From: a virus | Direction: 5' to 3' (one strand) | DNA: 64,000 nucleotides | Virus record (IMG/VR): IMGVR_UViG_3300044971_004534 | In this document: positions 1-64,000 of the stretch, one piece after another | How the letters are laid out: each line of letters starts with the position of its first letter | How positions within the stretch are numbered: the stretch's first letter is position 1 | Notes under the pieces: model-generated | The model's input: the letters and a program-made list of their open reading frames with translations, nothing else | Told to the model about the DNA's origin: nothing | The model's database searches: none | Made by a program: the position numbers and the translations under genes

Positions 1-3000
1 GATCTTTGTTTAGTGCAGAGTATAGCACTTTGCAAGATGTGTTTAAAAAGAACAGTAATCTTACTATAAATAATATAGGTTTATTTTTGGCTTCTGCTCA
101 AGGCAAATTTTTTGCTTCTTTAGTTCCTCAAGCAAGAACTTGGATGAAATCAGAATCTATTACTACCACTATAAAAAGACTTAAAAATAAAAATCCTAAT
201 GACTATTGGATGTCTATAGCAGATTCTGAGATGATTAATGGAGATCCGAATGGAGCAGATTTTCATGATTATTCTCAAGCAAGTAACTTCTCTAACGACG
301 AAGGTTTGTCCAATATGAATTCTTCATCTATTCTTGATGCTCTTGAATTTGAAGAAGTAGATCAGGTTACTCAGCAGTTGCTGGGATATGTGGGAATTGA
401 GCAAGTTATTAGTTCTAATATTGTTGAGGAGATGGCCAAGGCAGATATAGATTTTGCACAATCTCCCACAAGAGGTTTGAAGTTAAATAAAAACAATGCT
501 TCTTTAGACACAGAAAGAGTTCCTGCGTATGTTGGTCTTCCCCCTGGTGTTCATGCAAGTTTTTATAAAGCAAATCCTATATTCCCTGGTGAAGATTTTA
601 CTTTTAGATTTCATAAAACTGCACAAAGTCATTCTAAAGCTATTGTTGAAGATCCGCAAGAAGAATTTAGATATGCTATGCAAAATAGTTATAAATATAT
701 AGATTCTGGGTGTACTTCTGCTGACAATGAAGACAACGGAACTTTAACTCCTAATTTTGGTGTTTGTCGCCCAACTTTTATCCAACAAAAAAATGGTAAA
801 TTTAACGTTAACAGAATAGTTAGTAAAAATGCTAAAGATTATTACTTAGCAGACCAAAGTTATGTGGTTTTAGAAATAGATGGTGGTATAGAAAATAGAT
901 ATTTTTTAATCATACCTGAGCGTAGTTCTGTTGTCATGTTGGAGGTAACTGCTGACGCAGAAATATGTGATGTTGTTGATAATGACGGTAATTTGGCTAA
1001 ATTTTTAGATTTTACAGGCATGCGTCATTCAAGATTGTTATTTGATTTTGGCATTAGCGGCTCAAGCTTGTTAAATCAAGAAAATTTTTCAATACATTTT
1101 CAGCATTTCCGTGGTTTATTAAAAGTAACTTTTGAATCTGGAACAACTCAGTCATTCACTGTTTCTAGACAGCGTTTTACTAAAGATGTTTATGGCTTAC
1201 GTGACAACATATTTCTTGTTAATGTTCTTGACGATAAAAATCCATTTAAAAACAATGGTACATTTTTAGATCATCCAGCATTAAAAGATAAATTAAATAG
1301 TGAAAAATTTCCTATTAAGCTATCTGGAAATGTTATTGTTCACATGGGTCACGTAAGAATGGCTTTTAATTTTTCACCAATTACATACCCAAACACAACG
1401 AGCTTAAATATATCATATCCTGTTGGTATTACTAACTTGGAGGGCAATGATGGCGCTGTCAATATATTACTTCGCTCAGCTGGAGGGTATGAGGAGGGCA
1501 GCTCTAGGAATGTTTCTTCAAACCTTATTGACAAGTATCTAATTAGAAATGAAAACGGCAAGGTAGTGCCTGGACAATCAAAGCCTCACTACACTCACTG
1601 TAGTAGTAGAATATCTGAAATTATTGGCGGATCTTTAGTTAACGTGGATTCTAGTCTTTTTTCTGCCAACCAAAAAATGTGCATTACTGGACCTCATCTG
1701 TATGGTGACAAAAATTGGCCGCCCTATTTAGGTCAATACGCTGATCCAAGCTCTATTGTTACATCTTATAGAATAACTGATAGAAAAGAATTTGTAAATA
1801 GAATACACCCTTCAGTAACCTTAAAATCTGGATCGATTACTCTTAAAGGCAGTAATGGTTCTTTATGGCTTTTGGAGGGAGCTACGCGTCCAATATGCGA
1901 TGGATTTAGCGTATTTGTTCCCGAGGGATCAAAGCCTCAATGGAAAGGTGTTGCTGCTGATGTTACCGTTAATGTGATGGAGTACAGCGATTCTTGGGAC
2001 AGATCGGATAGATCATTTATGCAGCATAGTGGTAACATAAAATTTTATTTAAATAAAGCTGATGCTCTTCCACTGATAGAAAACATAACTTCTGTTCAGA
2101 CAGACAAAGGCTCTTTGGTTGATGGGGTCAGGAAAGCAGAAAGAATAGATGTTGATGGCATGGCTCGCTATGGTGAATATCAGGGTGACCAAACTCCATT
2201 GCTTGCAAGTTTGCAAGATAAATATTTTTATATTGAAGTAAGAGCATGGAGAGATCCTTATAAAGTTAACACTTTTGGTGCTGGTTTAAACGCACAAAAT
2301 GTTAATAATGGACCTGCAAATATAACGGAAGCTTTTTATGCCACTCATGAAAATGAAGTTCCAGATGAAGAGAACACTTTATTATTTACTGGTTTTTGCA
2401 GGAGCAGCTCTTATGCAATTAAGGACACTCATATTGAGATGAGCTGTAAGCTTGAAGATTACTATAGTATTTTAAATAGTATGACATGGTTAAATGCTCC
2501 TTTTTATGACGCCATGCGCGACTATGATGCGGTATTTGATGTAATGCAAAGAGCTGGATTTTTTTATGAACGTAGCAGTAGAGATCCGGCACATCTCATA
2601 TATAAGTATGTAACTACTCCATCTGATAGTGATTATCACGAAGTTCCATATGATGGAGAAAACTATATTGCCAATGATTATGTTTTACCTGGAAGTTATG
2701 GCACTATGGATCAGCCAATTTATAAACCTAATACCGGTGATTCCTATGCTGATATTTTAAAGAAATTTGCTACTATATCTGGTAAGACAATCTATTTTGA
2801 TCGTCGTGGGGTAATGCATTTTGATATACCTACAGATGAAATGGAAATTATGCAGGTCACTAGCACTGACCCTTCTAGGGAAATATATAGAGCTCCACCA
2901 TCTCATATATTTTCTCACACATATAACAGTCCAGATAGAGATTTAGTTCCATGGTGGAATGTCATTACTGATACATACAATTTTACTAGAAAGGTTGAAG

Positions 3001-3449: not shown

Positions 3450-3450
3450 A

Positions 3451-3666
3451 ATGGACAACATTCCTACACTTGGTAAACAATTAGCAGATAATATAAATTC
3501 ATTAATTGAGAAAAAGATAAATGAGAATTACACTAAGTTATATCATCAGCAAAATGTATTTGAAGGCGGCTTATATGGTGGAGCTAGAAGCTTGACAGAT
3601 GTCTCTACTAGTGAGGAAGAAGCTTATGGTCGCATTGGGATTAAAAGCGGAATTGTAGGAGCGTAA
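3451..3666 (+). CDS. Small hypothetical protein (71 aa), probably a virion or assembly component
   Basis: The ATG at 3451 is preceded by GGAGG (3441-3445), formed by the terminal Gly codons of the upstream gene. The ORF exactly fills the space between two large genes, and its TAA overlaps the next ATG (TAATG at 3664-3668). No recognisable domain. Confidence 0.7.
   Translation: MDNIPTLGKQLADNINSLIEKKINENYTKLYHQQNVFEGGLYGGARSLTDVSTSEEEAYGRIGIKSGIVGA
3657..3661 (+). promoter_or_regulatory. Shine-Dalgarno AGGAG for the 3666 gene
   Basis: The sequence is GTAGGAGCGTAATG, with 4-nt spacing to the ATG. Confidence 0.5.
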
Positions 3667-6600
3667 TGGCTGGAAAAACAAAACATTTTGGTTTAGGATA
3701 CTTTGATTTTAAAGATAGACTTGATACATCTGTATCTGTCAAGCTGGAGCGTGATCGTTTTCTTACTATAGATGATCAGCTTTTTGGTTTATATAGTGTA
3801 TTTGGTAATGGTATTGTTCGAGGATTTAGAGTCACAAGATCTCAGAACGAATCTGGAATAAAGACTCTTTCTATTGAGCCAGGTGTGCTATTTTGCAGAA
3901 ATAGAAGTTTTGAAAGTGTGGAAACTAAAAGCTTAGAGAATTTACCTCCTAATGGCGAATTTTATGTATTTGCAGATATTTTTTCAACATCTTCTGGAGA
4001 CAAAGACTTAGTACTATATTATAGTAGATCTGGTACAGACTTAAATGCCATAAGACTTGCTAGAATAGAAACATTCAATGGTGATGTATCAAAAATAGAC
4101 TATTCTTATAGGCATGAAATATCTTTTAGAAGAATTATTGAAAATGAAGTTGCCAAGCACAAGCATAATGGCACAGTATCAAAGATAGATCTTTTGAGAG
4201 AAGTTAAAAACACTTTGCCAGGTGCTAGAGTGGGATCTTTGGACGCAAGTAAGGTTCAATACGGAACTTTTAAAAGAGAGCGTATTCCTCAGATAAATCA
4301 CAACAACTTAAAGAACAAGGGAATAGTGAGTCATGCTGGCTTAGAAACTTTAGCACGCAGTTTGCAAAATGTTAATAGACAATTACTTGGAGAAATATCT
4401 TCTGTTAATATGATGAAGCATTCTTTAATGTTAAAGAGAAAGTATCCATCCGACTCTGATGGTTCCGTAAACATGATTACATTTATTCCTGGGTTAGTTT
4501 CAAACTCAGCAATAGACTTTTCCAATAGTAGTGTTAATATAAATTTAAATGAGGGATGCATATCTGGTCGTAGAACTGGCGGTGGAAGACAGGTATCTAT
4601 TTATTACAATAATATTGAAGCTCTAGAGTCCTATTCGTTTATTAATAACTGCTCAATTACTGATGCTTTTGTTTATTTAAATAGTACTGTTAGTTCTTCT
4701 ACTGTTCAATTTACCGATAGTTTTGAAAATGCAACTGGTGCTGATCGTCCTTATCCAGGAACGACCGCTCAAGCTGTGTCTGTTGAAAATAAAATAGCAG
4801 TGAGAAGTGATGTTTATAATGTTGTAAGTGGACTGTTCTCTGCTCGTTTCACTTCGGGTAAAAAAGACAAGTCAGTTTATAAAAGAGAAGTAACTACTCA
4901 AAAGAACTGGACTAGTTTTAATAGATTATTTTTGTCTGTGAAGTGTTCTCAGTCTCCGCATCCTCCAGTTTTCTTTTACATGGTCAATGCAAATGCAGAC
5001 AATACAATAACAGAAAGCGAAAAAATACAGCTTTTAGCAGAGGATGAGGTTACTTCAAACGCTGCATTGTCAAATTTTAAATCTATAGAAATTGACATAA
5101 CAGACTATACAAAAAACAACATTACAGAACTTGTTTTTGAAGTTGCTGATGCAGCAACAGAATTCGCTTTTTATGTTGATGACATTAAGACATCTTCAGT
5201 TTCTACGACTGATGTTACTTATGTAGACTCTGGCTCTGTGAGATACAGATATTTGGCTCCAACTCAGGTAATATTGGAATCAATATCGTTTGAAACAGAA
5301 GAACTAGACAATACCTCTGTGCAGTGCAGGTTTAGAACTGGAAGTAGTATTGTTGAGCTGTTGAACGCAACATTCTCATCTCCAATATCTTCAAATGATC
5401 AAATTACCGTTCCTTGCAATGCAGTTGAGGTTGAGTTTACTTTGCGTACTAATCCAGAAAAAAGTGCTTCTCCTAAATTAAATAATTTAGTATTAGTATT
5501 GCTGATACAGGGCGGAGAGAGACGAATTGAGGTAAATGCTCTTTCTGAATGGCAGCAGGGAACGCGTGCAAATATAGAAATATTTTCAGAATCTGGAGAC
5601 GCTGATTATGGAATTAGAATAAGAAGTCCATTGGAAACAAAACATATTATATATTCTTCTAACAATTATGTGCAGCAAATTAAAAATGCCTTACCTGATG
5701 TTCCTCCGGCAGAATCAAATATAAGTGTATTCGGTTTTAATGGTGCAAACTTATTACAAAGTCCTCAACAAATCATGTCATCTACTGCAGGGAATCCTGC
5801 TGTTGGTCTTGATCAGGCCAGTAGTGTTTTTAGAATGGATAATCGCAATTATTTAATTTGTGATACCTATAATAACAGAGTGTTGGAAATTAACAGAGAA
5901 GGTCAACTTGTAAGGGGCTACGGTGGTTCTTACATCATTGAAAATGGATTGCAGGGTGATTTTATTCCGCTTTGCGCCAACTTTAATTCTGACAATAGAC
6001 TTCTTCAGATTGTCTTTGATAAAGACATAGAAAATAGATCTGATATCAGCATACAGTATATTACATTAGTAATAGGTCAGACTCAGATCACTCTTGGAGA
6101 TGTTGATGTTAATGTAAATGACAATGCTCCTAAAAATTGCATACAAGTACGATTGTCTTTGCAAAAAACTCAAATACTTAAAGATACAAGTACACCTATT
6201 TTTGTTAAACTGACACCAGCAGTAATTAAAAAAGAAAAGTTTAATTCTGATTCTGAAATATTTAGCATTGCATACGGGATCAGCGGTTTGCGTTTAACAA
6301 AACAAAAATTTACTTACACTAAGCAAGTTTTTCATCCCATATCTGCTATTGCTTATGATGATAATAACTGGATTATCGCAAATAGTTTAATTAGCTTTGA
6401 CCGCATAAGAGCTGGATTAAGAGAAGATATAGATGAATTCTTTATTCCCGTAAATGTAGAGGAAGAGTTCTTTATCATAGCTGAAGTTCCTCAAGATCTT
6501 GGTGGAGATGTCCGTGTTACATTCCTTAACGATCAGGCTGCATCTTCCACTAACAATGAAACTTACGAACCAGTTATAATTTTAAATGGTAATAATATTG

Positions 6601-7331
6601 CTTTTGATGGGACCGTAGAGGTAGTAACTCAAAGTAATTTTAGTGCTAAAGTTAAAGTTAAGCCAAACGCTCCTATGTTAGGTTTAGACTTTAGCTTTAT
6701 ATTTAGAGTATCTGTAAAGGTTTTAGACACTATCACAAATACATATGTACCTGTTGAGGGCTCTCCTTATCGCATAGAGAAGAGAATCCACGTCATAAAT
6801 CAGGCTACTGCTGAAGGATCTGAGCAAGCTCCAGATATGCCTTCTGTGATAAGAATGAATATACTGGATGGTCAGGTTGACTTTGCTTTTGGCAAAGTAG
6901 ATCAATTTACTTTTAGTGATTTTACTCTTGGCGGTCTTTACAAGCTTGAAGACGGAAATATACTTATGGGTGGTATTAAAAAGTTGCCTGCTGATTTGCA
7001 ATTCGACACAAATCCCCCCAATGACGATGGTTTTAGAGCACAGGCTTTTAATTTATTAAAATCCTACAGAGGTCAAGTTATAAAAATAAACCCAGATGAT
7101 AGCGCGGTGTCTTTCAACTATGAGAGTCCAGATGGTCTCTATGTCAGTGATTGTTCAATGACATCAACTAATGAGATTTTAATTGCAGAATCTTCTATCA
7201 TACAAAATTCTGGTAGGACGATAAAAATTGACGGATTCGGAAACATAAGTTTTAATTTATCTAATGGACAATTCAGTATTATCAATCATGCAAGAGAATC
7301 TGGAGAAAACAGTATCATCATCAGTACATGA
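3666..7331 (+). CDS. Large tail-fibre/baseplate-attached structural protein (1,221 aa)
   Basis: Uninterrupted 1,221-codon ORF with AGGAG at 3657-3661 upstream of the ATG. Its N-terminal ~80 aa are paralogous to the N-terminus of the 34410 gene. It has an HKH motif followed by ...SLDASKVQYGTFKRERIP (nt ~4158-4290), which resembles the HxH ... G-T-L ... R-I-P signature I associate with phage tail-fibre shafts. No signal peptide. Confidence 0.85.
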   Translation: MAGKTKHFGLGYFDFKDRLDTSVSVKLERDRFLTIDDQLFGLYSVFGNGIVRGFRVTRSQNESGIKTLSIEPGVLFCRNRSFESVETKSLENLPPNGEFYVFADIFSTSSGDKDLVLYYSRSGTDLNAIRLARIETFNGDVSKIDYSYRHEISFRRIIENEVAKHKHNGTVSKIDLLREVKNTLPGARVGSLDASKVQYGTFKRERIPQINHNNLKNKGIVSHAGLETLARSLQNVNRQLLGEISSVNMMKHSLMLKRKYPSDSDGSVNMITFIPGLVSNSAIDFSNSSVNINLNEGCISGRRTGGGRQVSIYYNNIEALESYSFINNCSITDAFVYLNSTVSSSTVQFTDSFENATGADRPYPGTTAQAVSVENKIAVRSDVYNVVSGLFSARFTSGKKDKSVYKREVTTQKNWTSFNRLFLSVKCSQSPHPPVFFYMVNANADNTITESEKIQLLAEDEVTSNAALSNFKSIEIDITDYTKNNITELVFEVADAATEFAFYVDDIKTSSVSTTDVTYVDSGSVRYRYLAPTQVILESISFETEELDNTSVQCRFRTGSSIVELLNATFSSPISSNDQITVPCNAVEVEFTLRTNPEKSASPKLNNLVLVLLIQGGERRIEVNALSEWQQGTRANIEIFSESGDADYGIRIRSPLETKHIIYSSNNYVQQIKNALPDVPPAESNISVFGFNGANLLQSPQQIMSSTAGNPAVGLDQASSVFRMDNRNYLICDTYNNRVLEINREGQLVRGYGGSYIIENGLQGDFIPLCANFNSDNRLLQIVFDKDIENRSDISIQYITLVIGQTQITLGDVDVNVNDNAPKNCIQVRLSLQKTQILKDTSTPIFVKLTPAVIKKEKFNSDSEIFSIAYGISGLRLTKQKFTYTKQVFHPISAIAYDDNNWIIANSLISFDRIRAGLREDIDEFFIPVNVEEEFFIIAEVPQDLGGDVRVTFLNDQAASSTNNETYEPVIILNGNNIAFDGTVEVVTQSNFSAKVKVKPNAPMLGLDFSFIFRVSVKVLDTITNTYVPVEGSPYRIEKRIHVINQATAEGSEQAPDMPSVIRMNILDGQVDFAFGKVDQFTFSDFTLGGLYKLEDGNILMGGIKKLPADLQFDTNPPNDDGFRAQAFNLLKSYRGQVIKINPDDSAVSFNYESPDGLYVSDCSMTSTNEILIAESSIIQNSGRTIKIDGFGNISFNLSNGQFSIINHARESGENSIIIST

Positions 7332-42219: not shown

Positions 42220-42227
42220 TTTTATAC

Positions 42228-50549: not shown

Positions 50550-50555
50550 TTTATT

Positions 50556-53138: not shown

Positions 53139-53139
53139 T

Positions 53140-54894: not shown

Positions 54895-57800
54895 ATGACC
54901 TGGCCAGTTATTTCTTCAAGCAATCCTTTTGCTCAAACCATAAATCTCAGTTCTGATTCTGATTTACCACCTATAGCTAGATGGTCTAGCGTGCCCATGC
55001 AATGGGTTCACGATGGAGAATCGATAAGAGCATCTGTGGTAGCGTATCACTCTGCTGGTATACAAAGAGTTGATTTTATTTGCGACGGCGGAGAGTACGA
55101 GTCTGGTGGTCATATTATTAGCGTTATTAATCCTGTAGCGGACGCAGTTTCAAAGCAGGATGAGTATGCCTGTAGTATTGATATAGATAGTACTTGGCCT
55201 GAAGGAATTCATACAATCAGGGCTATTGTTTATTCTAATGCTGGCACTCAAAGAGTATTGCAGGGAACTTGGTTGCCAAAGTTTTCGTCCTCTTCAGACG
55301 AATATTCTTATGCATCGAATGGAGAGGTTGATTTTACTTTTATAGTTAATCGTGGATCTTATGACGGCATTACAGTTTATGTAGATTCTGTAAATGGCAA
55401 TGACGCTAATTCGGGTACTTTTGGCTCACCATTAAAAAATCTATGGAGCGCAATAGTTAAGATTCATGCAAGCCATACAGAAGGCTCTATTAGAGAAGAC
55501 GTTATTGTCTGTAAGGCTGGAGAGTATAGAATAAGCCCACTTGTCCAAAGCGATTATCCCGGCGGAGTGATTTCAGATGCACCATTGGGGTCTGGAAGAA
55601 TTGGTTGGTTGAAAATAAAGTCGATGGATGGTGTGAATAAAAAAGATGTGGTTATCACCAACCGTTCCATTAATTTTGGCAGTGTTGGATCTCCTTCAAG
55701 TTATACAGTACTTTCTAATTCTTTAGAATCTCGTTTTACTAATTTTGAAAATTTAACTTTAGAAAACTTTTATGATAGCAGTACAAATGTATCTGGAGAA
55801 AAGAATTTTATTATTAAAACTGGCGCGAATGTAGATAGCAGAGGAGTGTGGTTGAATGGCTGCAGTATTAGGGGAAAAGTAGGGGTATCTGTTGATACGT
55901 TAGTGTCTAGTTTAAATAGTCAGTCAAATATTTCTTTTAAAGCTTATCCTGGCATATCAGAGAATATAGTTGGGTTTGCTACTAATTGTTCAGTCAATGG
56001 CTTGTATAGAGGTTTTAAAGATTTTGCTTTAGTGAAGCAGTGTGGAATAGGCAGTGTCGTAGAGTACGCAGCAAAAAACTGTGCTGCTTTGATGTCGTGC
56101 AACATATCCAGTGTCGGGAATGTGGGAGCTGTATCTGGATCTGCAGTGATCAGCTTTACTGAAGATTCAGGAATAAAGAAAAATATTATTATATCTAAAA
56201 ATAATATTAATAAATCTGCTATTGCTCATTTTAGTTTTGATGCTAATGGAGCAACATTCAGTCCTAATGATTTTTACGAGAGTATAGCAATAGTCTCAAA
56301 TTATTTTACTAGATTTTCTGGTGGTCCAGGTAAGTCTTATATTTTTAATGGGATCAAGCAAGCATTTATTGTTCACAATAGTATGCTTGACAGTCTATCC
56401 TTTCATGATACACCAAATGGAGCGTGGACTAACCCAGCCAATGTGAGCAGCATATATTGCAGATACAATTTATTAAATGGAATTATAGTTGATTCAACAT
56501 CTGGCTCAACAGCTTCATTAGGTGCTGGTTTATCAAAGTTAAATACTTCTTTAACAAATTCAAATTCTGATATATCTGCAAATATATTTTTATTACCATC
56601 GGTTTCTTCTAACCCGCTTTTCTTATCTCTAATAGTAGCTAATCAGAACACGCAGGTAAATACAAGTTCACACAAAGTTGTCAAAAATTATTCTGAAGGA
56701 AATCTTGCTCTTTTGTGTGTTTCTCTTAATGGGGTTTCTAATCCAGCAAAAGGTTTAGAAAGTTCATCTATTTTGAATACTGACATTTTGGGTAATTCAT
56801 ATGAGAATTCTAAGGGAGATTGTGGTGCGAGACAGGATTGCACTGAAGAGGTTTCTCCAGATATTATAGAGACAACTGAAATTAAAACAGTTCCTATATC
56901 TGGATTTCCAATACTTGGAGCTAATCAAGTAGACTTCTTTCAGTCTTCTACTTTTGCTTTACAGTATCAGTTTAGCGCTTTTGATATGGTTCTTTGGTAT
57001 GATCAAAACGTAAGAAATTTTCCTGCTTCTGCTACAGAGACGGGATCACCTTACTACCCAGGTGGCTCTTATCAAGAGTGTCAGATTTGCACTTTGGGCC
57101 CAGGATTGTGCACAAGTACAGTTGATGGTGGCGCAAATTGGTTTAAGAGATGGAGTCTGCCTTCGAGTTTGACATTTGAGCTTTCTACTCTTCCTGCTTG
57201 TGACAGTGGGAATACTTCTAAGATAGCTGGTACTCGTGCTGCGTTTAGAGAGTATTTCGATGTTGATGGTATGGTGCGCGGAATGTCAAGGTATAACCCA
57301 GACTGGGCATTAGTATTTCTGCATGGTGGGTCAGAGCCATTGTGGTGGGATACTCAGATACCTGGAATGAGCCAATGGGCTTTGCTTAAAGATGATGGAG
57401 AAGAAAGCACTTCTATGGGTCTTGGAATGGACGTAGTGCAGGCCTACAAAGATGCATCAAATAAGTATAAGCAAAAATTGATGGCTTACTTTTTTCCATT
57501 TGCTTGGATTGAGTTAGATTCTTCTGTTTATCCTTATGCATTAGATATTTTTGGAAATCATGTTACTGAGGGCAGACATGGACCAACTATAAGCTATAGA
57601 TCTTCTTTTAATGATGCATTTGTTGACCTGCTATGCCAGATACATGTTGAGATGGCTCGCAAGTGTTTTGATATAGAAACAGGCTATGGATTCGCTGGGT
57701 GTATGTGGGATGCAGCTCCGATGTTGTATACACTTGACTTTAGTCCTGACGCAATTGCTGCATCTGGAATAGATGCTACTAAAGATTTTCCTTGGCCACT

Positions 57801-60800
57801 TAATAATCCGGCAGATGGTTCCAACACTGCTTTATTGACAGCATTTGTAAGTGAAGTTACCGCTAATGCGAATCCAGGTTCTCTCTTATTAAGAGATCCA
57901 AATCCCGCTAGAGGCTGGACACAGGATATTAAGGATAAGTTGCAGGCATATGTATATGCATTAAATAATCTTCAACCAGACATCATGCGCCGCATAAGAG
58001 AAGCTGTAGATGAAGCTGGATATTCTGATTTCGTGATCCTTCATGCTGTTGCAAACTCTCAGCCATCTTTTGAGTGGCCAGGCAATGCTGAAGATGTTGC
58101 ACTATATTCTTCTGGTGTCAAAACAGAAATAGGTGCAGAAGGCTATCTGAGAAGAAGGCAGGCTTCAAACGTTACTAGCAAAACTGGATCTAAAGCAGCT
58201 CCAGATTTATGGCTTGCCATGCATACAGATTTTTTAATGTCTCAGTCTAGAACTGGAAAAAGAGCTTATGGATGGCAAATTGGTCAATGGATTATACCAA
58301 ATTGGATAAGTGGTAGTGAATGTGACGCTACATTTAAATCTTGCTTAACAACTTTTGACGGTAATTATTCCAATAAAGTAGAGTTTAAAAACAATCTTCT
58401 TCCAAGAGATATAGCAGTACGTGGTTGGTTGGAAAACCAATCTTTATTAGCTCTGGCTTCTCACGTTACCCCAGAGTTTATGTATGGGTTTTATGATTGG
58501 TATAAATATGATCAAGTAGAAGACTTGTCAGGATTTGAGAATGCTGCAGACGCCTTTGCAATACAGCATCTTCCTTATATGAGAAGAATTTCTTCCATAC
58601 TTGGATCTGTTAGTGATGCAAACGTCAAGTTGCACAATAGATCAAATGTTGCATGGTGTGTTATATTGCATCGTCCAGAGCTGGGCTGGAAGACAAGTTT
58701 GTATATTAATACTGGTGTTAATGAATCATTCTCTGGCCCTGGTTTTGCTTACTACTGGCCAATATTTGGAGCTGTACAGACATGTGTTGAGCATGGCATT
58801 GCTCACGTTATTGCTCAGGATGATGCTTTTACTGCAAGTAATTTTGCAAATTCTGGAGTAGTTATAGTTCCTTTTGACAAAAATCTTTTGTCTGCTTCTG
58901 TGAGAAATGAGCTTGAATTATTTGATGGACTTGTCATATATGTGCAAGACGCCATAGCAAACGGTGAGCTTGATGATAATTTCCATAATACCCAGTCAGT
59001 TGGAAATAAAACAAGAGCTCAAGTTTCTAGAGATCAGTTGTGGAATTTGATGCAAAGAACTAATAAAAATTTAGTATTGCAAACAGAGTTTTCTTATCCT
59101 CAAAATTTGCCTGAATCTCCAATTCCGATGGTTGGTTATGAAATAGGAACTGATGTTTATGAAAATCAATCTCTACTTGTGACCTTAGTTGCAGATGCTG
59201 CTTGGCACGATGGTAGAAAATATGGATTCTTTGGTCTTACCGTCAATAACTATCCAGTAAATGGAGTTTGTGGTAGACAAAATTTGTTACTTGCATCTCC
59301 TAACGATCCAGAAAATGATCTTGTTAATTCTTTAAATTTAAGGAAAATATTAGATGTATGTAGTTGCACTTATACTGACACATTTACTACAATTAATACT
59401 ATAGCTGGTAGAGATTGCTATTATGTTAATCATTCTGCTGCTGGAGTAATACCGGTAGAGGTATTGCCAGCAAGAGGCAAGCTTAACTATTATGCTGGAT
59501 ATCCTCCAGTTTGGAATAGTAATAGAAGCGCAAGAATAACATTCAATGCTTCTCAAAAGCCTTATAGACTTAGACAGTTATTGTTAAATAAAGATGATGG
59601 AGTTTTTGGTCCAGTTGACATGTTTGTTAACAATGACTTTGTTGATGTTGTTCCGTTTGAAATTGGATCTTTTGTACAGGTTCAATTATCAGATGCTGAC
59701 ATTATCCCGCATGTTGGAATGTGTGTATCTGAAGATTTACTAAAAGTCGCCAGTGTTGATGATCTAATTTCTTTACTAAGTTTTTTAAGAGATCAGCCAG
59801 CATCATTCAACGTTATAAAAGTTAGATTGTCATGCGGTTCTTCAATGGTCGAAGGCGACGTAGTTGCTAATACTTTATTCACAGAAATCATTTCACATGC
59901 ACAGTCTAATCAAAATGCATATTCTTGGCTTGTAAATAATGTTGGGGAAATAGGAAGTCCTACTATTCACACTTTATTTGGCCTACTTAGATCTACGTCA
60001 CAAAATCCATGTGGAGATGGATCTTTCTCTGTTGGTGGAGTTTTAATACAAAATGAAGGTATCTGCAAAATTGCATCAGCGTTAACTTCACTATCTACTA
60101 TGTATAATCGTTTAACTAGCGATAGTCAATGTTACTGTGAATCTTCAGATACCTATAAGCTATACTCATCTAAGGTAAATTTAGACAGATCTTTAAGTCC
60201 TTCCGATGGCTCTAGCTGGGCTGCGACGGTAGAAGATGAAATCTCTGCCATATCAGACGCTAGCGATGGTTTAATGATGTACATTAGGCCTGTAAGTGAT
60301 ATTTCAAGTGATTACTACAATATTGACGTGAATGGTTTGCCAATTATAGATGGAATTGTTAAATATGTTTCTGATGTTAATGACGCAATACTTTCACATA
60401 CTGCTAACGTACAAGATGCTTCAGATTATTATGCAGGAGTCGTATTAGACTTTGAGCATCTTTTTAATATAAATAGCCCTCTTGCTACCTTGCACGCAGA
60501 CGCATGTTCTTACCCATTCTTTATAAATTCTCAGGGCTCAGATTCTTTTGACAATGTCAGGAGATCAATTGCTTATGTAAATGGCAGATTAATATCTGTG
60601 CTAAGTGCTATTAAATTTATAAATCCAAAACTACAGGTTTCTATAAGGGGTCTCGGAAGAATAGATGATGCTTTTGGCTTTGAGGAAAGTAAAGACTCTA
60701 GTGCAGTACATACGGCAGCAAATTGCACTCCAAAAGCACGTGAAGAGTTGTATAAAAGAGTATCAGAATTTTATGGTCCACTTTTAGAAGCTTGTGATTT

Positions 60801-63800
60801 CGTATACCTTTGGAATGCAAATGAATCTGAAGATGCAGATCTTTCTGGTATTATTCCTAGTATAGCCAAGGCTAATTTAAGACTTTCCTCTTTATCTAAG
60901 CACTTTGAATATAGACAAGCTAATCAGCCATTAATATTTGTTGAAATAAATGGAACATATTTGTCTTCTAATGGCAATTCGCCTAGTGATTACTGTGAAG
61001 TTTCAAGTGCAGAAATTCTCGCAGAGTCACTTGATCCGTTTATTCGTAATAGTATAGATGGATTTGTGTATTATGCTGGTCAAGAAAATATAGAAAAGTC
61101 TATTTTTGAAAATTGCCCAACTTCTATTTCTAATTCAGCAATTGCCGCAGCAGTATCTTCTTGCTGGGATGTTGCTATATCTAATTGCTCTAGTGAAAGC
61201 GGCGTAATATCTGCATTTGAATCTTCAATATTAAATCATATTGAGTTAATATCATCACATATTGGTGGAAGCACTACAGAATCTTATATTCCATTTATTA
61301 TTATGATGGGAGAGTCTAATGCTGGAGGTTTGGCAAAGAATTCAGAAGCTTTAGCTTCTGAATTAGGAACAAGAGATGAAGTTAAAATTTTAAATAATTA
61401 TACTTTAAATTTTGAAACTTTAAATATTAGTGCTACAGGTAATAATATTTTAGATCACCGTAACCCAAACGGTATACCAGATGTTACAGATTCTATATGG
61501 AATTCTAATGGTGGGCCTCCTCATGGCTGGGAGCTTGGTTTAGCTAATGCTGTAAGAGATGGAAAATTTGCAACAGATTTTGTCTATCTTCTAAAAACAG
61601 GTCATGGTGGTTCTAAGATTGGAGACAATGCTATTGATGGTGACTGGGACACCTCTGATACTTATTGGAATTTATTTGTCAATAGATTTAATGTCGCTAA
61701 ATCTGCTATTATTGCTGATGGATATACTCCACAGGTATATTTATGGTATGAAATAGGAATTAATGATTGCATATCTAATGTAAATCCATCTCAGTGGAAA
61801 ACAAAATTAGTACAAAAGTTTATAAATGTAAGATCTGCTGTAGGTGCAAATATACCAATATTCATAGTATTATTGCCAGATGTTGATATGTCCGGTGGCT
61901 CTATTGATAACATATCTGATTTCAATAATGCTATTTTAGAAATTTGTGCAGAAAATAACTTAATATATTGGGTTAAATCAGAAGATGCTCCATTAAAGTC
62001 TGGTGATATTTATCACTGGAATTATTATGGCATGAAAAATCTTGCTGATAAAATGTCGTACTTGACTGCAGATGTTATTGGTCAAGGCATAAATTATATT
62101 GCAAATATCGCAGTGGCTCCTAATCAGCCAGACTACAACAATTTTTCCCCAGTTATTGGATTTATACCTTACAGTAATTCATCAGATCCAGCTTTAGAGT
62201 TTGTTTATCCGTCATTCGAGGTTAGGGGTAGACTTTCTGGTAATGCCATAAATGACGAGCCAGGATCTGGTCCTTATCCAAGTAGTGATGGGTCTCCTTC
62301 GCAAGCTATATCTTTCTTTAATTCTAAGGGTATACCAGCAGCAAGAAGATCAGTATTCTATTTTAATATTGGATCATCAACATTTGATGGGGTATTTTCT
62401 GATCCTATATACAATAGAACTTATGAACAACTATATAATTCATCAGACAGTTGTATAGATGCAAATGGAGATATAGTAAGACAAGACACGTTAGATCCAA
62501 GAGAGGCTCAAAATCCTACTTATAGAGGAAGTCTAGCTTTTGTTTCTCCGTGGACATTAGGAGCAAATACAAGACTTGAACAATTTACTCGTCAATGGGT
62601 TGGAGAATATAAAAATTTAAATGGAAAGATTTATGGCTTTATATCTGATAATGAATCCCTCAACCCAACTGGCTTTTGGGCTGTCCCATCTTTAAGGTAT
62701 GACAACAATAACACTTCTCGCATTCCGCACTTCCAAAAAATAATTAATGATCCAAGATCCTTGCTTACTAATGAAAGTGCTGGATACGCTTTTGAAATTG
62801 GTAAAAACCTGAAAGACCAATTAAGGCTGAATGATTTTTACAACATAAACGATTTTGACTCCGTTGATTTTAGAACTATTGATGACCCGCAGTTCAGGGG
62901 AGGCTACCTGCACTGGGATTATGTGATGTATAGGCATGCCATATGGTATGCTCAAAAGCACTGGTACGATGCCATTAGTGATTATTTTCCAAATCATAAT
63001 TCAACACATGTTTGGACATTCTATATTCCCAAAGAAGATCATTTTAATGATATGAATGGTCATATTACTTACAGAGATATGCTTTGTGGTAATACTGCAA
63101 ATCCTTTATTGTTTGGAGAATGTGGTGGAATTGGAATCAACAGTGAAATAGATCCAAACAATAAAACACGAACAAGATTCTTATCTCAATACAATCCTGG
63201 TGGAACTCCTTTTGGCTCTAGGGCTTGGAATAGCTTGTTGTTGCAGCAACAGGAAATAAAGGCAATACGTAGACATCCAGAAAATCAAAAATTTATACCA
63301 TGGATAGGAAGTAGAAATCTTATTTTGAATAACGCTTTTGGTGGTGGATCAGATGTGAATCATGATTCTCTGTGGGCTGAGGGAGTATATCACTTAGCTT
63401 TACACAATCCAGAAGCTATATACATGTTCTACCCCAGAAATCCAGATGGAGCTGGGGACACTGCTTGGTATATTGAGAATGGTCTAGTTTCTTATCAATT
63501 ATTAAATTCTATATTGAAAGAAGTGAATGAAAGAACTGGAAATAAAATTGTTTCTCTTGTTGAAAGTTCTATACAAAGAATAAACCTTGATAGTAAAGTT
63601 TTAATAACTGGTTGCAAAACTATTAAAAATAAACATCTATGGAGAATAACGGCAGATGTTTTACATGTTAATTCTTTGAATATAGATGGTTCTGTTTTTG
63701 CAGTACAGTCTAGCAGTCCTGCCATATGGTATGAAACTGGAACAAATGTTGCAGCAATCAATATTCTTTCTTATGATCCAGTTACTAAGACTTTAAATCT

Positions 63801-64000
63801 TGTGTCTTCATCTGCAGAAGCTCCTTTGTGTAAGTCTTGTATGTCTGCATTCATTTCTCCAGCTATTACTGCTTCAGAGTTTAATGTTGATAAAAATTCA
63901 TTCCCTCAAAACATTTTCTCTATGATAGAAATTAGTGATCGTGTTTTGTCAAGAGATACTTATGATCCTAATGGCGCGTGTGCAGCCAATGCTTCCGCAA
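54895..64000 (+). CDS. Giant multi-domain protein (>=3,035 aa, 3' end beyond the window) with an Ig-like N-terminus, a pectate-lyase-type beta-helix and an SGNH/SASA-type esterase domain
   Basis: Not in the supplied ORF track. I translated frame 1 from the ATG at 54895 (MTWPVISSSNPFAQ...). I then checked it codon by codon over 54895-55500, 58561-58740 and 61261-64000, and no stop occurs. The track also lists no frame-1 ORF fragments anywhere in 54.9-64 kb, consistent with one frame open to the window end (last codons ...NGACAANASA). Domain evidence is given in separate features. Confidence 0.9.
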   Translation, partial: MTWPVISSSNPFAQTINLSSDSDLPPIARWSSVPMQWVHDGESIRASVVAYHSAGIQRVDFICDGGEYESGGHIISVINPVADAVSKQDEYACSIDIDSTWPEGIHTIRAIVYSNAGTQRVLQGTWLPKFSSSSDEYSYASNGEVDFTFIVNRGSYDGITVYVDSVNGNDANSGTFGSPLKNLWSAIVKIHASHTEGSIREDVIVCKAGEYRISPLVQSDYPGGVISDAPLGSGRIGWLKIKSMDGVNKKDVVITNRSINFGSVGSPSSYTVLSNSLESRFTNFENLTLENFYDSSTNVSGEKNFIIKTGANVDSRGVWLNGCSIRGKVGVSVDTLVSSLNSQSNISFKAYPGISENIVGFATNCSVNGLYRGFKDFALVKQCGIGSVVEYAAKNCAALMSCNISSVGNVGAVSGSAVISFTEDSGIKKNIIISKNNINKSAIAHFSFDANGATFSPNDFYESIAIVSNYFTRFSGGPGKSYIFNGIKQAFIVHNSMLDSLSFHDTPNGAWTNPANVSSIYCRYNLLNGIIVDSTSGSTASLGAGLSKLNTSLTNSNSDISANIFLLPSVSSNPLFLSLIVANQNTQVNTSSHKVVKNYSEGNLALLCVSLNGVSNPAKGLESSSILNTDILGNSYENSKGDCGARQDCTEEVSPDIIETTEIKTVPISGFPILGANQVDFFQSSTFALQYQFSAFDMVLWYDQNVRNFPASATETGSPYYPGGSYQECQICTLGPGLCTSTVDGGANWFKRWSLPSSLTFELSTLPACDSGNTSKIAGTRAAFREYFDVDGMVRGMSRYNPDWALVFLHGGSEPLWWDTQIPGMSQWALLKDDGEESTSMGLGMDVVQAYKDASNKYKQKLMAYFFPFAWIELDSSVYPYALDIFGNHVTEGRHGPTISYRSSFNDAFVDLLCQIHVEMARKCFDIETGYGFAGCMWDAAPMLYTLDFSPDAIAASGIDATKDFPWPLNNPADGSNTALLTAFVSEVTANANPGSLLLRDPNPARGWTQDIKDKLQAYVYALNNLQPDIMRRIREAVDEAGYSDFVILHAVANSQPSFEWPGNAEDVALYSSGVKTEIGAEGYLRRRQASNVTSKTGSKAAPDLWLAMHTDFLMSQSRTGKRAYGWQIGQWIIPNWISGSECDATFKSCLTTFDGNYSNKVEFKNNLLPRDIAVRGWLENQSLLALASHVTPEFMYGFYDWYKYDQVEDLSGFENAADAFAIQHLPYMRRISSILGSVSDANVKLHNRSNVAWCVILHRPELGWKTSLYINTGVNESFSGPGFAYYWPIFGAVQTCVEHGIAHVIAQDDAFTASNFANSGVVIVPFDKNLLSASVRNELELFDGLVIYVQDAIANGELDDNFHNTQSVGNKTRAQVSRDQLWNLMQRTNKNLVLQTEFSYPQNLPESPIPMVGYEIGTDVYENQSLLVTLVADAAWHDGRKYGFFGLTVNNYPVNGVCGRQNLLLASPNDPENDLVNSLNLRKILDVCSCTYTDTFTTINTIAGRDCYYVNHSAAGVIPVEVLPARGKLNYYAGYPPVWNSNRSARITFNASQKPYRLRQLLLNKDDGVFGPVDMFVNNDFVDVVPFEIGSFVQVQLSDADIIPHVGMCVSEDLLKVASVDDLISLLSFLRDQPASFNVIKVRLSCGSSMVEGDVVANTLFTEIISHAQSNQNAYSWLVNNVGEIGSPTIHTLFGLLRSTSQNPCGDGSFSVGGVLIQNEGICKIASALTSLSTMYNRLTSDSQCYCESSDTYKLYSSKVNLDRSLSPSDGSSWAATVEDEISAISDASDGLMMYIRPVSDISSDYYNIDVNGLPIIDGIVKYVSDVNDAILSHTANVQDASDYYAGVVLDFEHLFNINSPLATLHADACSYPFFINSQGSDSFDNVRRSIAYVNGRLISVLSAIKFINPKLQVSIRGLGRIDDAFGFEESKDSSAVHTAANCTPKAREELYKRVSEFYGPLLEACDFVYLWNANESEDADLSGIIPSIAKANLRLSSLSKHFEYRQANQPLIFVEINGTYLSSNGNSPSDYCEVSSAEILAESLDPFIRNSIDGFVYYAGQENIEKSIFENCPTSISNSAIAAAVSSCWDVAISNCSSESGVISAFESSILNHIELISSHIGGSTTESYIPFIIMMGESNAGGLAKNSEALASELGTRDEVKILNNYTLNFETLNISATGNNILDHRNPNGIPDVTDSIWNSNGGPPHGWELGLANAVRDGKFATDFVYLLKTGHGGSKIGDNAIDGDWDTSDTYWNLFVNRFNVAKSAIIADGYTPQVYLWYEIGINDCISNVNPSQWKTKLVQKFINVRSAVGANIPIFIVLLPDVDMSGGSIDNISDFNNAILEICAENNLIYWVKSEDAPLKSGDIYHWNYYGMKNLADKMSYLTADVIGQGINYIANIAVAPNQPDYNNFSPVIGFIPYSNSSDPALEFVYPSFEVRGRLSGNAINDEPGSGPYPSSDGSPSQAISFFNSKGIPAARRSVFYFNIGSSTFDGVFSDPIYNRTYEQLYNSSDSCIDANGDIVRQDTLDPREAQNPTYRGSLAFVSPWTLGANTRLEQFTRQWVGEYKNLNGKIYGFISDNESLNPTGFWAVPSLRYDNNNTSRIPHFQKIINDPRSLLTNESAGYAFEIGKNLKDQLRLNDFYNINDFDSVDFRTIDDPQFRGGYLHWDYVMYRHAIWYAQKHWYDAISDYFPNHNSTHVWTFYIPKEDHFNDMNGHITYRDMLCGNTANPLLFGECGGIGINSEIDPNNKTRTRFLSQYNPGGTPFGSRAWNSLLLQQQEIKAIRRHPENQKFIPWIGSRNLILNNAFGGGSDVNHDSLWAEGVYHLALHNPEAIYMFYPRNPDGAGDTAWYIENGLVSYQLLNSILKEVNERTGNKIVSLVESSIQRINLDSKVLITGCKTIKNKHLWRITADVLHVNSLNIDGSVFAVQSSSPAIWYETGTNVAAINILSYDPVTKTLNLVSSSAEAPLCKSCMSAFISPAITASEFNVDKNSFPQNIFSMIEISDRVLSRDTYDPNGACAANASA
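55372..55450 (+). other. N-terminal cap signature of a right-handed parallel beta-helix (pectate-lyase fold / DUF1565-like)
   Basis: The segment ITVYVDSVNGNDANSGTFGSPLKNLWSAIVKI matches the common hYVd..G.D.N.GT...P.kth..A motif that precedes pectin-lyase-fold helices in polysaccharide depolymerases and tailspikes. Downstream to ~56700 the sequence is rich in short N/G/S-containing repeats consistent with helix rungs. Confidence 0.55.
61291..62040 (+). other. SGNH-hydrolase (SASA / carbohydrate O-acetylesterase-like) domain with all four catalytic blocks
   Basis: Block I is PFIIMMGESNAGG (GxSN, compare GQSNM of SASA) at 61291. Block II is LLKTGHGGSKIG at ~61591. Block III is VYLWYEIGINDC (GxND) at ~61735. 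Block V is SGDIYHWNYYG (DxxH) at ~61999. Their order and spacing (about 95, 45 and 90 aa) are as in SGNH/SASA esterases. Confidence 0.7.

What the first reader, a model, noticed from the sequence alone, without database searches (positions are those of the whole stretch)
1..64000. 64 kb of uninterrupted, single-strand, translationally coupled giant genes
Eighteen genes sum to roughly 21,300 codons, a mean of ~1,180 aa. Three are at least 2,800 aa and ten are at least 800 aa. The junctions are TAATG (3666, 18283, 34410, 39956, 46887), ATGA (24915, 40594), or gaps of 1, 1, 3, 1, 7, 12, 1 and 57 nt. No other strand, RNA gene or mobile element interrupts the array. None of the 17 visible N-termini has a hydrophobic signal peptide, yet the domain vocabulary is extracellular and carbohydrate-directed (lectin, propeller, beta-helix, dockerin, esterase, FN3/Ig). 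A hub-like module at the 5' end followed by fibre-like proteins fits the distal tail or adsorption apparatus of a tailed phage or phage-tail-like particle. Devoting more than 60 kb to it, in proteins that are almost all ORFans, is far outside the usual scale.
Basis: partly seen in the sequence, partly recalled or inferred. Interest (0 to 1): 0.8.

Follow-up and report, generated by a model that had tools for sequence, protein, structure and literature searches.

The report
Giant tail-gene array of huge phage
This 64-kb window is the middle of an 86-kb (probably about 100-kb) one-directional run of giant genes that most likely builds the tail tip, baseplate and host-binding fibres of an uncultured bacteriophage whose contigs reach about 400 kb. 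The layout is shared by a whole undescribed clade of huge phages, and I found no description of a phage adsorption apparatus on this genomic scale.

Summary
The window holds 18 + strand genes totalling 21,308 codons, is 99.87% coding, has the stated overlapping or near-abutting junctions, and contains no tRNA, Rfam RNA or credible minus-strand gene.

The phage-tail reading is supported.
- The first gene (window 6-3449) models confidently with an alignment and has a gp27 / Mu gp44 / P2 gpD / VgrG-type baseplate-hub fold.
- In relatives with 40-75% identical orthologues in the same order, the array follows a tail-tube gene (PF18906), three small chaperone-position genes and a coiled-coil gene in the tape-measure position.
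- The hub family occurs on 30 IMG/VR viral contigs of up to 498 kb. It is essentially absent from 185,579 GTDB species genomes.

Two corrections are needed.
- The array is larger than the window. On its own contig it runs 86 kb and includes a 7,798-aa gene. A 74%-identical relative suggests about 100 kb in all.
- The genes are not true ORFans. The proximal ~40 kb (hub to the 1,848-aa gene) is conserved in order and length across the clade. The distal part is lineage-specific and carries paralogous fibre genes with shared N-terminal domains.

Capsid and terminase genes were not reached, and the tail type (contractile or not) is unresolved. I rate it a new variant of a known kind.

The parts
1..3449 (+). 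C-terminal 1,148 codons of a 1,302-aa baseplate-hub protein. The gene starts 459 nt upstream of the window.
   Evidence: The AF2 model built with a 60-sequence alignment has pLDDT 77.6 and pTM 0.69. Foldseek matches Mu gp44, T4 gp27, MuSo2 / Neisseria 43-kDa tail proteins, VgrG and eCIS spikes at E 1e-11 to 1e-7 with target TM 0.55-0.65. BFVD matches are named 'Phage protein D' and '43 kDa tail protein'. The family has 234 representatives at 50% identity.
3451..3666 (+). A 71-aa gene that follows the hub gene throughout the clade. Function unknown.
   Evidence: It is called on public contigs. Orthologues are 56-66% identical. A 66-96-aa ORF occupies this position in some IMG/VR relatives and in L087.
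3666..7331 (+). A 1,221-aa conserved baseplate or fibre-base protein. Its N-terminal ~140 aa are homologous to the N-terminus of the 34410 gene.
   Evidence: It is about 30% identical over its full length to the ~1,180-aa gene after the hub in 30 IMG/VR loci. HHalign against the 34410 family gives probability 98.2% and E 5e-14. No Pfam, PHROG, PDB or GenBank-phage match was found.
7288..8415 (+). GT4-family glycosyltransferase (375 aa; alternative start at 7264).
   Evidence: PF00534 at E 7e-10 and phrog_2170 at E 1e-26. It holds the same position in 18 IMG/VR loci.
8417..18283 (+). A 3,288-aa protein with an RCC1 / BLIP-II-type beta-propeller around residues 1810-2040.
   Evidence: PF13540 at E 5e-18. 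PDB matches to BLIP-II at E 1.6e-10. Its N-terminal and C-terminal parts match the ~1,700-aa gene at this position in IMG/VR relatives.
18283..19788 (+). A 501-aa protein with weak similarity to the FN3-like region of lambda-J-type central tail fibres.
   Evidence: phrog_31 'central tail fiber J' at E 9.5e-7.
19792..24918 (+). A 1,708-aa protein with an N-terminal type I dockerin and two dockerin-like modules near the C-terminus.
   Evidence: PF00404 at E 3.9e-7. A 195-nt x 2.1 tandem repeat lies at 23113-23520. Its C-terminal ~200 aa are conserved in IMG/VR relatives.
24915..25985 (+). A 356-aa protein with a possible ConA-like lectin fold.
   Evidence: PF13385 at E 1.7e-3, below the curated cut-off. 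Orthologues of 355-370 aa hold the same position in IMG/VR relatives.
25987..34410 (+). A 2,807-aa conserved giant structural protein.
   Evidence: It aligns over its full length at 26-27% identity to 2,754-2,769-aa genes at the same position in IMG/VR contigs of 257-488 kb. No Pfam, PHROG or PDB match was found.
34410..39956 (+). A 1,848-aa protein. It has the same N-terminal domain as the 3666 gene, then tandem FN3 domains, then regions with Asp-box-like (SxDxGxTW) motifs.
   Evidence: A family profile matches FN3 arrays in the PDB at E down to 4e-25. The motifs are seen in the family consensus. Homologues lie 28-31 kb downstream of the hub on IMG/VR contigs, against 33.9 kb here.
39956..43130 (+). 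Three small genes (213, 541 and 304 aa) that are translationally coupled. This is where the lineage-specific part begins.
   Evidence: ORFs and junctions. No family match. No homologue in the IMG/VR loci fetched.
43138..46887 (+). A 1,249-aa lineage-specific protein; candidate fibre or fibre adaptor.
   Evidence: Orthologues are 39% identical in L010 and 63% in L068. No family match.
46887..54837 (+). Three paralogous fibre-like genes (1,218, 860 and 565 aa) that share an N-terminal ~200-300-aa domain and a mid-region.
   Evidence: All-against-all BLASTP gives E 4e-18 to 7e-6. The same set occurs in relatives L010 and L068. phrog_4390 matches the C-terminus of the 1,218-aa protein.
54895..64000 (+). 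The first 3,035 codons of a 7,798-aa gene. It follows the only sizeable gap in the window (57 nt).
   Evidence: The full length is given by the gene calls on the 179,655-bp and 401,021-bp contigs. Homologues are 74% identical in L068 (5,596 aa, followed by 2,587 aa) and 43% in P0001. It contains internal ~800-aa repeats. No Pfam or PHROG match.

Best explanation
The window is the central part of the late, tail-distal morphogenesis operon of an uncultured huge tailed phage. Contigs carrying exactly these proteins reach 401-406 kb.

Gene order follows the assembly order usual for tailed phages.
- Upstream of the window lie, in order, the tail tube, three small chaperone-position genes, a tape-measure-like protein (865 aa) and a 1,558-aa protein. 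The tube and small genes were seen only in relatives.
- The gp27/gpD-type hub (1,302 aa) comes next and straddles the window start.
- A conserved set of giant proteins follows (1,221; GT4; 3,288; 501; 1,708; 356; 2,807; 1,848 aa). I interpret these as an oversized baseplate and proximal fibre scaffold.
- A lineage-specific distal set follows (213; 541; 304; 1,249; three paralogues of 1,218 / 860 / 565; 7,798 aa). In a close relative there are two further genes of 497 and 3,965 aa. I interpret this set as receptor-binding, carbohydrate-directed fibres.

Shared N-terminal domains (3666 with 34410; 46887 with 50556 and 53140) would dock different distal modules onto the same sites, as in branched multi-fibre phages. 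Overlapping stop/start junctions and the lack of detectable punctuation suggest one long, translationally coupled late transcript that fixes stoichiometry. Glycosyltransferases inside and next to the array suggest that the tail proteins are glycosylated.

Shown: the hub fold, the gene order, conservation across the clade, the paralogy and the extent of the array. Inferred: virion location of each product, fibre and enzyme roles, co-transcription and glycosylation.
For: - Hub fold.
- Own contig: co-directional genes of 865, 1,558, 1,302 and 71 aa lie upstream, and the last gene is 7,798 aa. From the tape-measure-like gene to the end of the 7,798-aa gene this makes 20 genes, 28,648 codons and 86 kb.
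- Relatives with 40-75% identical orthologues in the same order carry PF18906 Phage_tube_2, small genes and a coiled-coil, Ala/Gln-rich 798-934-aa protein directly upstream. They also carry a Mu gp36-like connector and PhoH.
- The tube-to-1,700-aa gene order is conserved in IMG/VR contigs of up to 498 kb. The 355 / ~2,760 / ~1,530-aa trio lies 28-31 kb downstream of the hub there.
- In the 74%-identical relative the giant genes end 38 kb after the start of the 54895 homologue. GT2, GT4, GT2 and a phosphoesterase follow.
- The family is absent from GTDB species genomes apart from one 13-kb contig.
- N-terminal paralogy.
- No signal peptides.
- An actin-like gene of the module has homologues only in published huge phages.
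Against: - No capsid, portal, terminase or sheath gene was identified on any contig of the clade. About 20 kb upstream of the tube was read in one relative and about 10 kb in others. Only PhoH, a connector-like protein, glycosyltransferases, an actin-like protein and a protein sharing a domain with cyanophage structural proteins could be named.
- The own contig's tube region could not be fetched, so the tube is shown only in relatives.
- The tape-measure assignment rests on position and composition alone.
- Most giant proteins have no detectable fold or family, so their fibre or enzyme roles are inferred.
- Beta-helix and esterase domains were not confirmed.
- There is no expression or virion-proteome evidence.
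Confidence: 0.85

Rival explanations
1. The array lies in a phage tail operon, but many of the giant products are not baseplate or fibre parts. They could be capsid or tail 'hair' decoration, ejected or internal proteins, or enzymes that remodel the host surface or a biofilm matrix during infection. Only the first few genes would then build the tail tip.
For: Most giant proteins have no recognisable tail-fibre family. Glycosyltransferases, which are not normally virion parts, are interspersed. The distal genes are lineage-specific. Jumbo phages with capsid fibres or hairy tails are known (review PMC13282480).
Against: The genes sit directly downstream of the hub, in the usual place for baseplate and fibre genes, and are tightly coupled to them. 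Shared N-terminal docking-type domains are typical of fibres. Lengths are conserved across about 25% identity, e.g. 2,807 against 2,754-2,769 aa, which fits a geometric structural role. FN3, RCC1-propeller, dockerin and lectin-like modules are typical of surface-exposed binding proteins.
Confidence: 0.2
2. The locus belongs to a headless phage-tail-like particle (tailocin or extracellular contractile injection system) carried by a very large plasmid or other extrachromosomal element, not to an infectious phage.
For: The best structural matches of the hub include eCIS, PVC, AFP and T6SS spikes. There is a weak N-terminal match of the 3666/34410 domain to an Anabaena CIS baseplate protein at E 0.25. 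No capsid or terminase gene was seen.
Against: A Mu gp36-like head-tail connector lies in the module. No sheath gene is adjacent to the tube in seven relatives. Thirty contigs of the family are in IMG/VR as viral genomes. An actin-like gene is shared only with published huge phages. PhoH, a common phage gene, is adjacent. The gp27 fold is equally typical of true phages.
Confidence: 0.05
3. The locus is a cellular giant-adhesin or giant-gene island in a small-genome bacterium, such as Omnitrophota or Patescibacteria, which are known for very long genes.
For: The scale resembles the giant genes reported in Omnitrophota (bioRxiv 10.1101/2023.11.21.568195). One related 13-kb contig is binned as a Patescibacteria MAG.
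Against: No relative of the 3666 protein was found in 185,579 GTDB species genomes. The hub family hits a single short contig that has the phage gene order. The hub fold, tube and tape-measure context point to a phage. There are no signal peptides. No secretion-system or housekeeping genes occur in any flank that was read.
Confidence: 0.02

Closest known systems
gp27 / Mu gp44 / P2 gpD / VgrG-type baseplate hub (central hub of contractile tails, eCIS and T6SS, and the N-terminal module of siphophage Tal proteins)
   Same: The fold of the 1,302-aa protein matches at Foldseek E 1e-11 to 1e-7 with target TM 0.55-0.65. Its position, shortly after the tape-measure-like gene, also fits.
   Different: There is no sequence-level match to Pfam, PHROG or PDB, even with a 60-sequence profile. 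The protein is three to four times longer than gp27 or gp44. The strongly conserved segment is the C-terminal ~340 aa, with about 800 aa of extra beta-rich domains in front of it.
Canonical long-tailed phage order: tube, chaperones, tape measure, distal tail protein, hub/Tal, receptor-binding proteins (e.g. lambda, SPP1, T5, 80alpha; from general knowledge)
   Same: The order is the same: tube, three small genes, tape-measure-like gene, one large gene, hub, then fibre-like genes, all on one strand and tightly packed.
   Different: The scale differs: 86 kb is shown and about 100 kb is inferred, against a few kb to about 20 kb. Individual genes reach 7,798 aa. Glycosyltransferases are embedded. 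Whether a sheath exists is unknown.
Branched, multi-receptor-binding-protein adsorption systems: Klebsiella jumbo phage phiKp24 with hyperbranched fibres (cited in review PMC13282480); CBA120 TSP1-4 and PhiK64-1 (from my own knowledge)
   Same: Several tandem fibre genes carry shared N-terminal docking domains and different distal parts. The domain vocabulary is carbohydrate-directed.
   Different: No tailspike or depolymerase family was detected here. The proximal eight genes are conserved rather than swapped across the clade. There is no sequence relationship to those phages: tblastn against 50,697 GenBank phage records found nothing.
Very long phage genes on record: the phage WO eukaryotic-association-module gene of 14,256 bp was called one of the largest phage genes in 2016 (PMC5062602)
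   Same: Both are exceptionally long single ORFs in a phage genome.
   Different: The last gene here is 23.4 kb (7,798 aa), and four further genes in the locus exceed 5 kb. Here the long genes sit in the tail operon, not in an accessory module. I did not check whether later metagenomic work reports longer phage genes.

Membership tests
Tailed-phage (Caudoviricetes) tail morphogenesis module | Central hub protein with the gp27/gpD fold | tested here: met
   AF2 model with pLDDT 77.6. Foldseek against the PDB and BFVD.
Tailed-phage (Caudoviricetes) tail morphogenesis module | Tail tube gene upstream on the same strand | tested here: inconclusive
   Met in relatives: PF18906 and phrog_290 in L011/L013/L014, with homologues in 16 IMG/VR loci. 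The own contig could not be read beyond 6.3 kb upstream of the window.
Tailed-phage (Caudoviricetes) tail morphogenesis module | Tape measure protein between the chaperone genes and the hub module | tested here: inconclusive
   An 865-aa gene (798-1,240 aa in relatives) lies in the right place. It is coiled-coil-like and Ala/Gln/Glu-rich, and is conserved across the clade. No family match was found.
Tailed-phage (Caudoviricetes) tail morphogenesis module | Capsid, portal and large terminase genes on the same replicon | tested here: inconclusive
   About 10-20 kb upstream of the tube was read in relatives. It holds a Mu gp36-like connector, PhoH, and a protein sharing a domain with cyanophage structural proteins, but no hallmark gene was recognised. 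The rest of the 400-kb contigs could not be reached.
Tailed-phage (Caudoviricetes) tail morphogenesis module | Found on viral rather than cellular replicons | tested here: met
   Thirty IMG/VR contigs carry the family. There are 0 and 1 hits in 185,579 GTDB species genomes, and the single hit is a 13-kb contig with the phage gene order.
Contractile tails / contractile injection systems | Sheath gene next to the tube gene | tested here: not met
   In seven relatives the genes just upstream of the tube are a ~125-150-aa ORF, a GT4-like gene and ~300-aa ORFs. None was recognised as a sheath. A sheath elsewhere in the genome, or one too divergent to detect, is not excluded.
Contractile tails / contractile injection systems | gp6/gp7-type wedge proteins | tested here: inconclusive
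   The only evidence is a match at E 0.25 between the shared N-terminal domain of 3666/34410 and residues 23-79 of Anabaena CIS baseplate protein All3314.
Branched multi-RBP adsorption apparatus (phiKp24 / CBA120 type) | Several tandem fibre genes with a common N-terminal anchor and divergent distal parts | tested here: met
   46887, 50556 and 53140 share an N-terminal domain. 3666 and 34410 share theirs, at HHalign probability 98.2%.
Branched multi-RBP adsorption apparatus (phiKp24 / CBA120 type) | Beta-helix tailspike or depolymerase domains | tested here: inconclusive
   No Pfam, PHROG or PDB match to tailspike or pectate-lyase families was found. There is only a weak pentapeptide hit, plus sequence motifs I noticed by eye in 54895.
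Cellular giant-adhesin island (type I / type V secreted) | Signal peptides or dedicated secretion genes in the flanks | tested here: not met
   No hydrophobic N-termini. The flanks in relatives are tail genes upstream and glycosyltransferases downstream.

The most novel reading that the evidence does not exclude
A whole clade of huge phages (contigs of about 250-500 kb) spends a fifth to a quarter of its genome on one coupled operon. That operon would build a multi-megadalton tail-tip organelle of a kind not yet seen. Its conserved core would consist of giant proteins whose lengths are preserved at about 25% identity, together with embedded glycosyltransferases that glycosylate it. A lineage-specific crown of fibres would include a 7,798-aa protein, possibly among the longest phage proteins known. 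On this reading the structure is not just 'more fibres'. It would be a distinct adsorption or penetration machine, for instance one that reaches through thick sheaths, capsules or biofilm matrix.
Probability: 0.3. Interest if true: 0.8.

Novelty: new variant of a known kind. Interest (0 to 1): 0.65.

Why it matters
Huge phages are known almost entirely from sequence, and most of their genes are unassigned. This work assigns a contiguous 86-100 kb, about a fifth to a quarter of a ~400-kb genome, to one function. It also defines a conserved gene order that can serve as a marker for an undescribed clade: tube, tape-measure-like gene, ~1,250-1,560-aa gene, hub, ~1,200-aa gene, GT4, giant genes.

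If the products are virion parts, the adsorption apparatus would be several times larger than those of the model long-tailed phages I know of. The 7,798-aa gene (23.4 kb) is longer than the 14,256-bp gene called one of the largest phage genes in 2016. Three questions become directly testable:
- Why do huge phages need such machinery?
- Why are protein lengths preserved while sequences diverge?
- Are tail proteins glycosylated by phage-encoded enzymes?

The giant proteins also offer a large pool of unexplored carbohydrate-binding or carbohydrate-degrading folds.

Tried and rejected
- Megablast of 25 kb of the window, and tblastn of the tube, hub, 3666 protein and several upstream proteins, against 50,697 GenBank phage records. 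Nothing was found except the actin-like gene (two huge phages) and short domain-level matches to a cyanophage 'structural protein' and to two 735-kb uncultured-phage records.
- Pfam and PHROGs on all window proteins, the upstream proteins and 40 hub-family members gave very few matches.
- PDB sequence and profile searches for the hub, the 1,558 / 1,302 / 1,221-aa proteins, the tube, the ~1,000-aa upstream protein and four giant proteins returned only RCC1 and FN3.
- Single-sequence AlphaFold of the hub C-terminus failed, with pLDDT 29.
- Reaching the own contig's flanks failed.
  - All three homologous-protein searches missed the query's own cluster, and a chimeric query returned nothing.
  - The metagenome-contig scan found nothing.
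  - The own genome is not in IMG/VR.
- The region around the actin-like gene in huge phage LR756511.1 shows no similar tail array.
- Identification with two published groups was considered and not adopted. Jug gut phages (360-402 kb) have 27-30% G+C against 34% here, and no sequence link was found. For moraphages I read only the abstract (genomes up to 307 kb) and made no sequence comparison.
- I considered that the common break point of the GROS21-1 scaffolds marks a genome terminus. I rejected this because the region is continuous in IMG/VR relative L071.
Full report
**1. Observation**

The window holds 18 genes, all on the + strand: 16 complete, one cut at the 5' end and one cut at the 3' end. 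Together they make 21,308 codons and cover 99.87% of the bases. The glycosyltransferase gene overlaps its neighbour by 44-68 nt.

- There are no tRNA or tmRNA genes and no Rfam family.
- The longest antisense open frame is 167 codons.
- In the 3' 20 kb, promoter-like and terminator-like sites are at shuffle level.
- G+C is 31-37% and GC skew is positive throughout.
- At this composition about 7% of random codons are stops, so these ORFs are not chance.
- The ORFs have full-length orthologues elsewhere. The window itself recurs at 98.7-100% nucleotide identity in independent assemblies.
- A crude hydrophobicity test found no signal-peptide-like N-terminus.

**2. Where the window sits**

Exact-protein look-ups place the window at about 64-128 kb of NCBI contig JBFDSL010005901.1 (179,655 bp). 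The same locus lies on a 401,021-bp JGI contig, and identical proteins occur on contigs of up to 406,100 bp.

- Upstream on the own contig, the same strand carries genes of 865, 1,558, 1,302 and 71 aa. The 1,302-aa gene is the one cut by the window start.
- Downstream, the gene cut by the window end is 7,798 aa long.
- From the 865-aa gene to the end of the 7,798-aa gene there are therefore 20 co-directional genes, 28,648 codons and 86 kb.

**3. What the first gene is**

No sequence method recognised the first gene. An exhaustive HMMER search nevertheless found 234 cluster representatives, mostly 1,000-1,400 aa long, with a strongly conserved C-terminal ~340 aa. Profiles built from them still match nothing in the PDB, Pfam or PHROGs.

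An AlphaFold model built with 60 of these sequences reached pLDDT 77.6 and pTM 0.69. The single-sequence model had failed. Foldseek matched the good model to the following at E 1e-11 to 1e-7 and target TM 0.55-0.65:
- Mu gp44, T4 gp27 and the MuSo2 / Neisseria 43-kDa tail proteins;
- the hub or central-spike components of phages P1, Milano, phiCD508 and 80alpha;
- eCIS, PVC and AFP spikes, and T6SS VgrG.

In BFVD it matched viral proteins named 'Phage protein D' and '43 kDa tail protein'.

**4. Context from relatives**

The own contig could not be read further upstream. A homologue of the 865-aa protein led to ENA scaffolds that carry orthologues of the 865-, 1,558-, 1,302-, 71- and 1,221-aa genes in the same order, at 43-75% identity.

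Directly upstream those scaffolds encode:
- a tail tube protein (PF18906; phrog_290);
- three small genes in the chaperone position;
- a coiled-coil, Ala/Gln-rich ~800-aa protein in the tape-measure position;
- a 241-aa protein with weak Mu gp36 and head-tail-adaptor matches;
- an actin-like protein.

The actin-like protein's only GenBank-phage relatives are ORFs in published huge phages of 485 and 595 kb.

**5. A clade-wide design**

The hub profile found 30 IMG/VR viral contigs, several of them 257-498 kb.

- In most of these contigs the order is: tube, ~150 aa x 3, tape-measure-like (900-1,240 aa), ~1,250 aa, hub (~1,190 aa), ~1,180 aa (matching 3666), ~370 aa GT4 (matching 7288), ~1,700 aa (matching parts of 8417).
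- On the same contigs, 28-31 kb after the hub (33.9 kb here), lie genes of 355, 2,754-2,769 and 1,510-1,561 aa. These are homologous to the window's 356-, 2,807- and 1,848-aa genes.
- The proximal ~40 kb is thus conserved in order, and strikingly in length, at about 25% identity.
- The genes after 39956 have homologues only in close relatives (L010 at 39-53%; L068 at 60-74%).
- A second subgroup has a shorter version: hub, ~540 aa, ~1,880 aa.

In GTDB species genomes the family is absent except for one 13-kb contig with the same gene order, binned as Patescibacteria. That contig is probably mis-binned.

**6. Where the array ends**

In the 74%-identical IMG/VR relative (223,646 bp) the 54895 homologue is 5,596 aa. 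It is followed by genes of 2,587, 497 and 3,965 aa. Ordinary-sized genes come next: GT2, GT4, GT2, a metallophosphoesterase and two unknowns.

If the window's phage is the same, its 7,798-aa gene would correspond to the 5,596-aa and 2,587-aa genes combined. The array would then total about 100 kb, roughly a quarter of a ~400-kb genome. This last step is inference.

**7. Internal logic**

- The 1,221-aa and 1,848-aa proteins share a homologous N-terminal ~140-aa domain (HHalign probability 98.2%, E 5e-14).
- The 1,218-, 860- and 565-aa proteins share an N-terminal 200-300 aa and a mid-region.
- Recognisable modules are an RCC1 / BLIP-II propeller, dockerin and dockerin-like repeats, tandem FN3, a weak ConA-like lectin and Asp-box-like motifs.

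Together with gene order, this fits a conserved giant baseplate and proximal scaffold that carries several different distal fibres docked through shared N-terminal domains. The known analogue is a branched multi-fibre phage such as phiKp24 (review PMC13282480). Four or more glycosyltransferases inside or beside the module suggest glycosylation of tail proteins. This is a hypothesis.

**8. What remains open**

- No capsid, portal, terminase or sheath gene was recognised in the 10-20 kb read upstream of the tube in relatives. 'Infectious phage' rather than 'tail-like particle' therefore rests on the connector-like gene, IMG/VR membership, the huge-phage actin link and absence from cellular genomes.
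- The tail type is unresolved. The gene order around the tube looks siphovirus-like, with no adjacent sheath. The hub's best structural matches, and one weak wedge-like hit (E 0.25), are of the contractile type.
- The roles of individual giant proteins are inferred from position and modules only.

**9. Comparison and novelty**

The locus works like a tail-tip, baseplate and fibre operon, and the hub is a structural member of the gp27/gpD class. It is not a sequence member of any curated family. No GenBank phage shares these genes.

On scale, the array is 86 kb shown and about 100 kb inferred, with a 23.4-kb gene. In 2016 a 14.3-kb gene was called one of the largest phage genes (PMC5062602). 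I did not check whether later work reports longer ones. The scale, the clade-wide conservation of giant protein lengths and the embedded glycosyltransferases make this a new variant of a known kind rather than a new kind. I found no paper describing it, but the literature search was by keyword only.

Noticed in passing
L011:896-1951; L071:5445-6500; L079:4167-5204: An actin-like gene of ~350 aa (PF25216 Volactin, with a faint MreB hit) sits inside the head-tail and tail module of the relatives examined upstream of the tube. Its only GenBank-phage relatives are ORFs in huge phages LR756511.1 (595 kb) and LR745208.1 (485 kb), at 27-29% identity.
   Followed up: partly
window 7288-8415; L079:8132-9409; L070:16857-19424: Glycosyltransferases are scattered through the tail module. 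There is a GT4 after the 1,221-aa gene, a GT4-like gene just upstream of the tube, and GT2/GT4/GT2 plus a metallophosphoesterase (L070:19408-20628) straight after the last giant gene. This suggests phage-encoded glycosylation of tail proteins.
   Followed up: partly
window 23113-23520 and 19792-20040: A 195-nt tandem repeat (2.1 copies, 91% match) encodes dockerin-like calcium-binding modules near the C-terminus of the 1,708-aa protein. The same protein has an N-terminal type I dockerin. No cohesin partner was detected anywhere in the window.
   Followed up: no
window 54895-64000 and beyond; L068:8855-25645; L069:6188-13951: The last gene is 7,798 aa on the window's own contig. In a 74%-identical relative it is 5,596 aa followed by 2,587 aa, which implies a fusion or a split. 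It contains diverged internal repeats of ~800 aa. Several Logan contigs end inside it.
   Followed up: partly
L087 (JAIPJN010000018.1, 1-12957): A 13-kb, 26% G+C contig binned as a Patescibacteria MAG carries the same gene order: tape-measure-like fragment, 1,306, hub 1,055, 72, 1,083, GT 366. It is probably a mis-binned huge-phage fragment, though a host hint cannot be excluded.
   Followed up: partly
L011, L013, L014 (first bases of each locus) compared with L071:1801-4950: Scaffolds of the 59%-identical relative from several samples all break at the same point, about 8.85 kb upstream of the gene that was looked up. An IMG/VR relative is continuous there, inside or just after a ~981-aa gene. 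This points to a recurrent assembly break, not a genome end.
   Followed up: partly
L088:36-2654: An 872-aa protein about 10 kb upstream of PhoH in one relative shares a ~130-aa domain (40-61% identity) with 'YadA domain-containing structural proteins' of T4-like cyanophages and with huge phage LR756508.1.
   Followed up: no
window 3451-3666: A 71-aa gene lies directly after the hub gene. It is translationally coupled on both sides (1-nt gap, then TAATG overlap). It is conserved in close relatives, and an ORF of similar size sits at this position in several more distant ones. It has no Cys/His pattern of a PAAR tip. Function unknown.
   Followed up: no
whole window: GC skew is positive in every 4-kb bin (0.09-0.18), and cumulative skew rises monotonically across the 64 kb.
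   Followed up: no
tool behaviour: None of the three homologous-protein searches returned the query's own cluster, although exact look-ups show that window proteins are in the collection.
   Followed up: no
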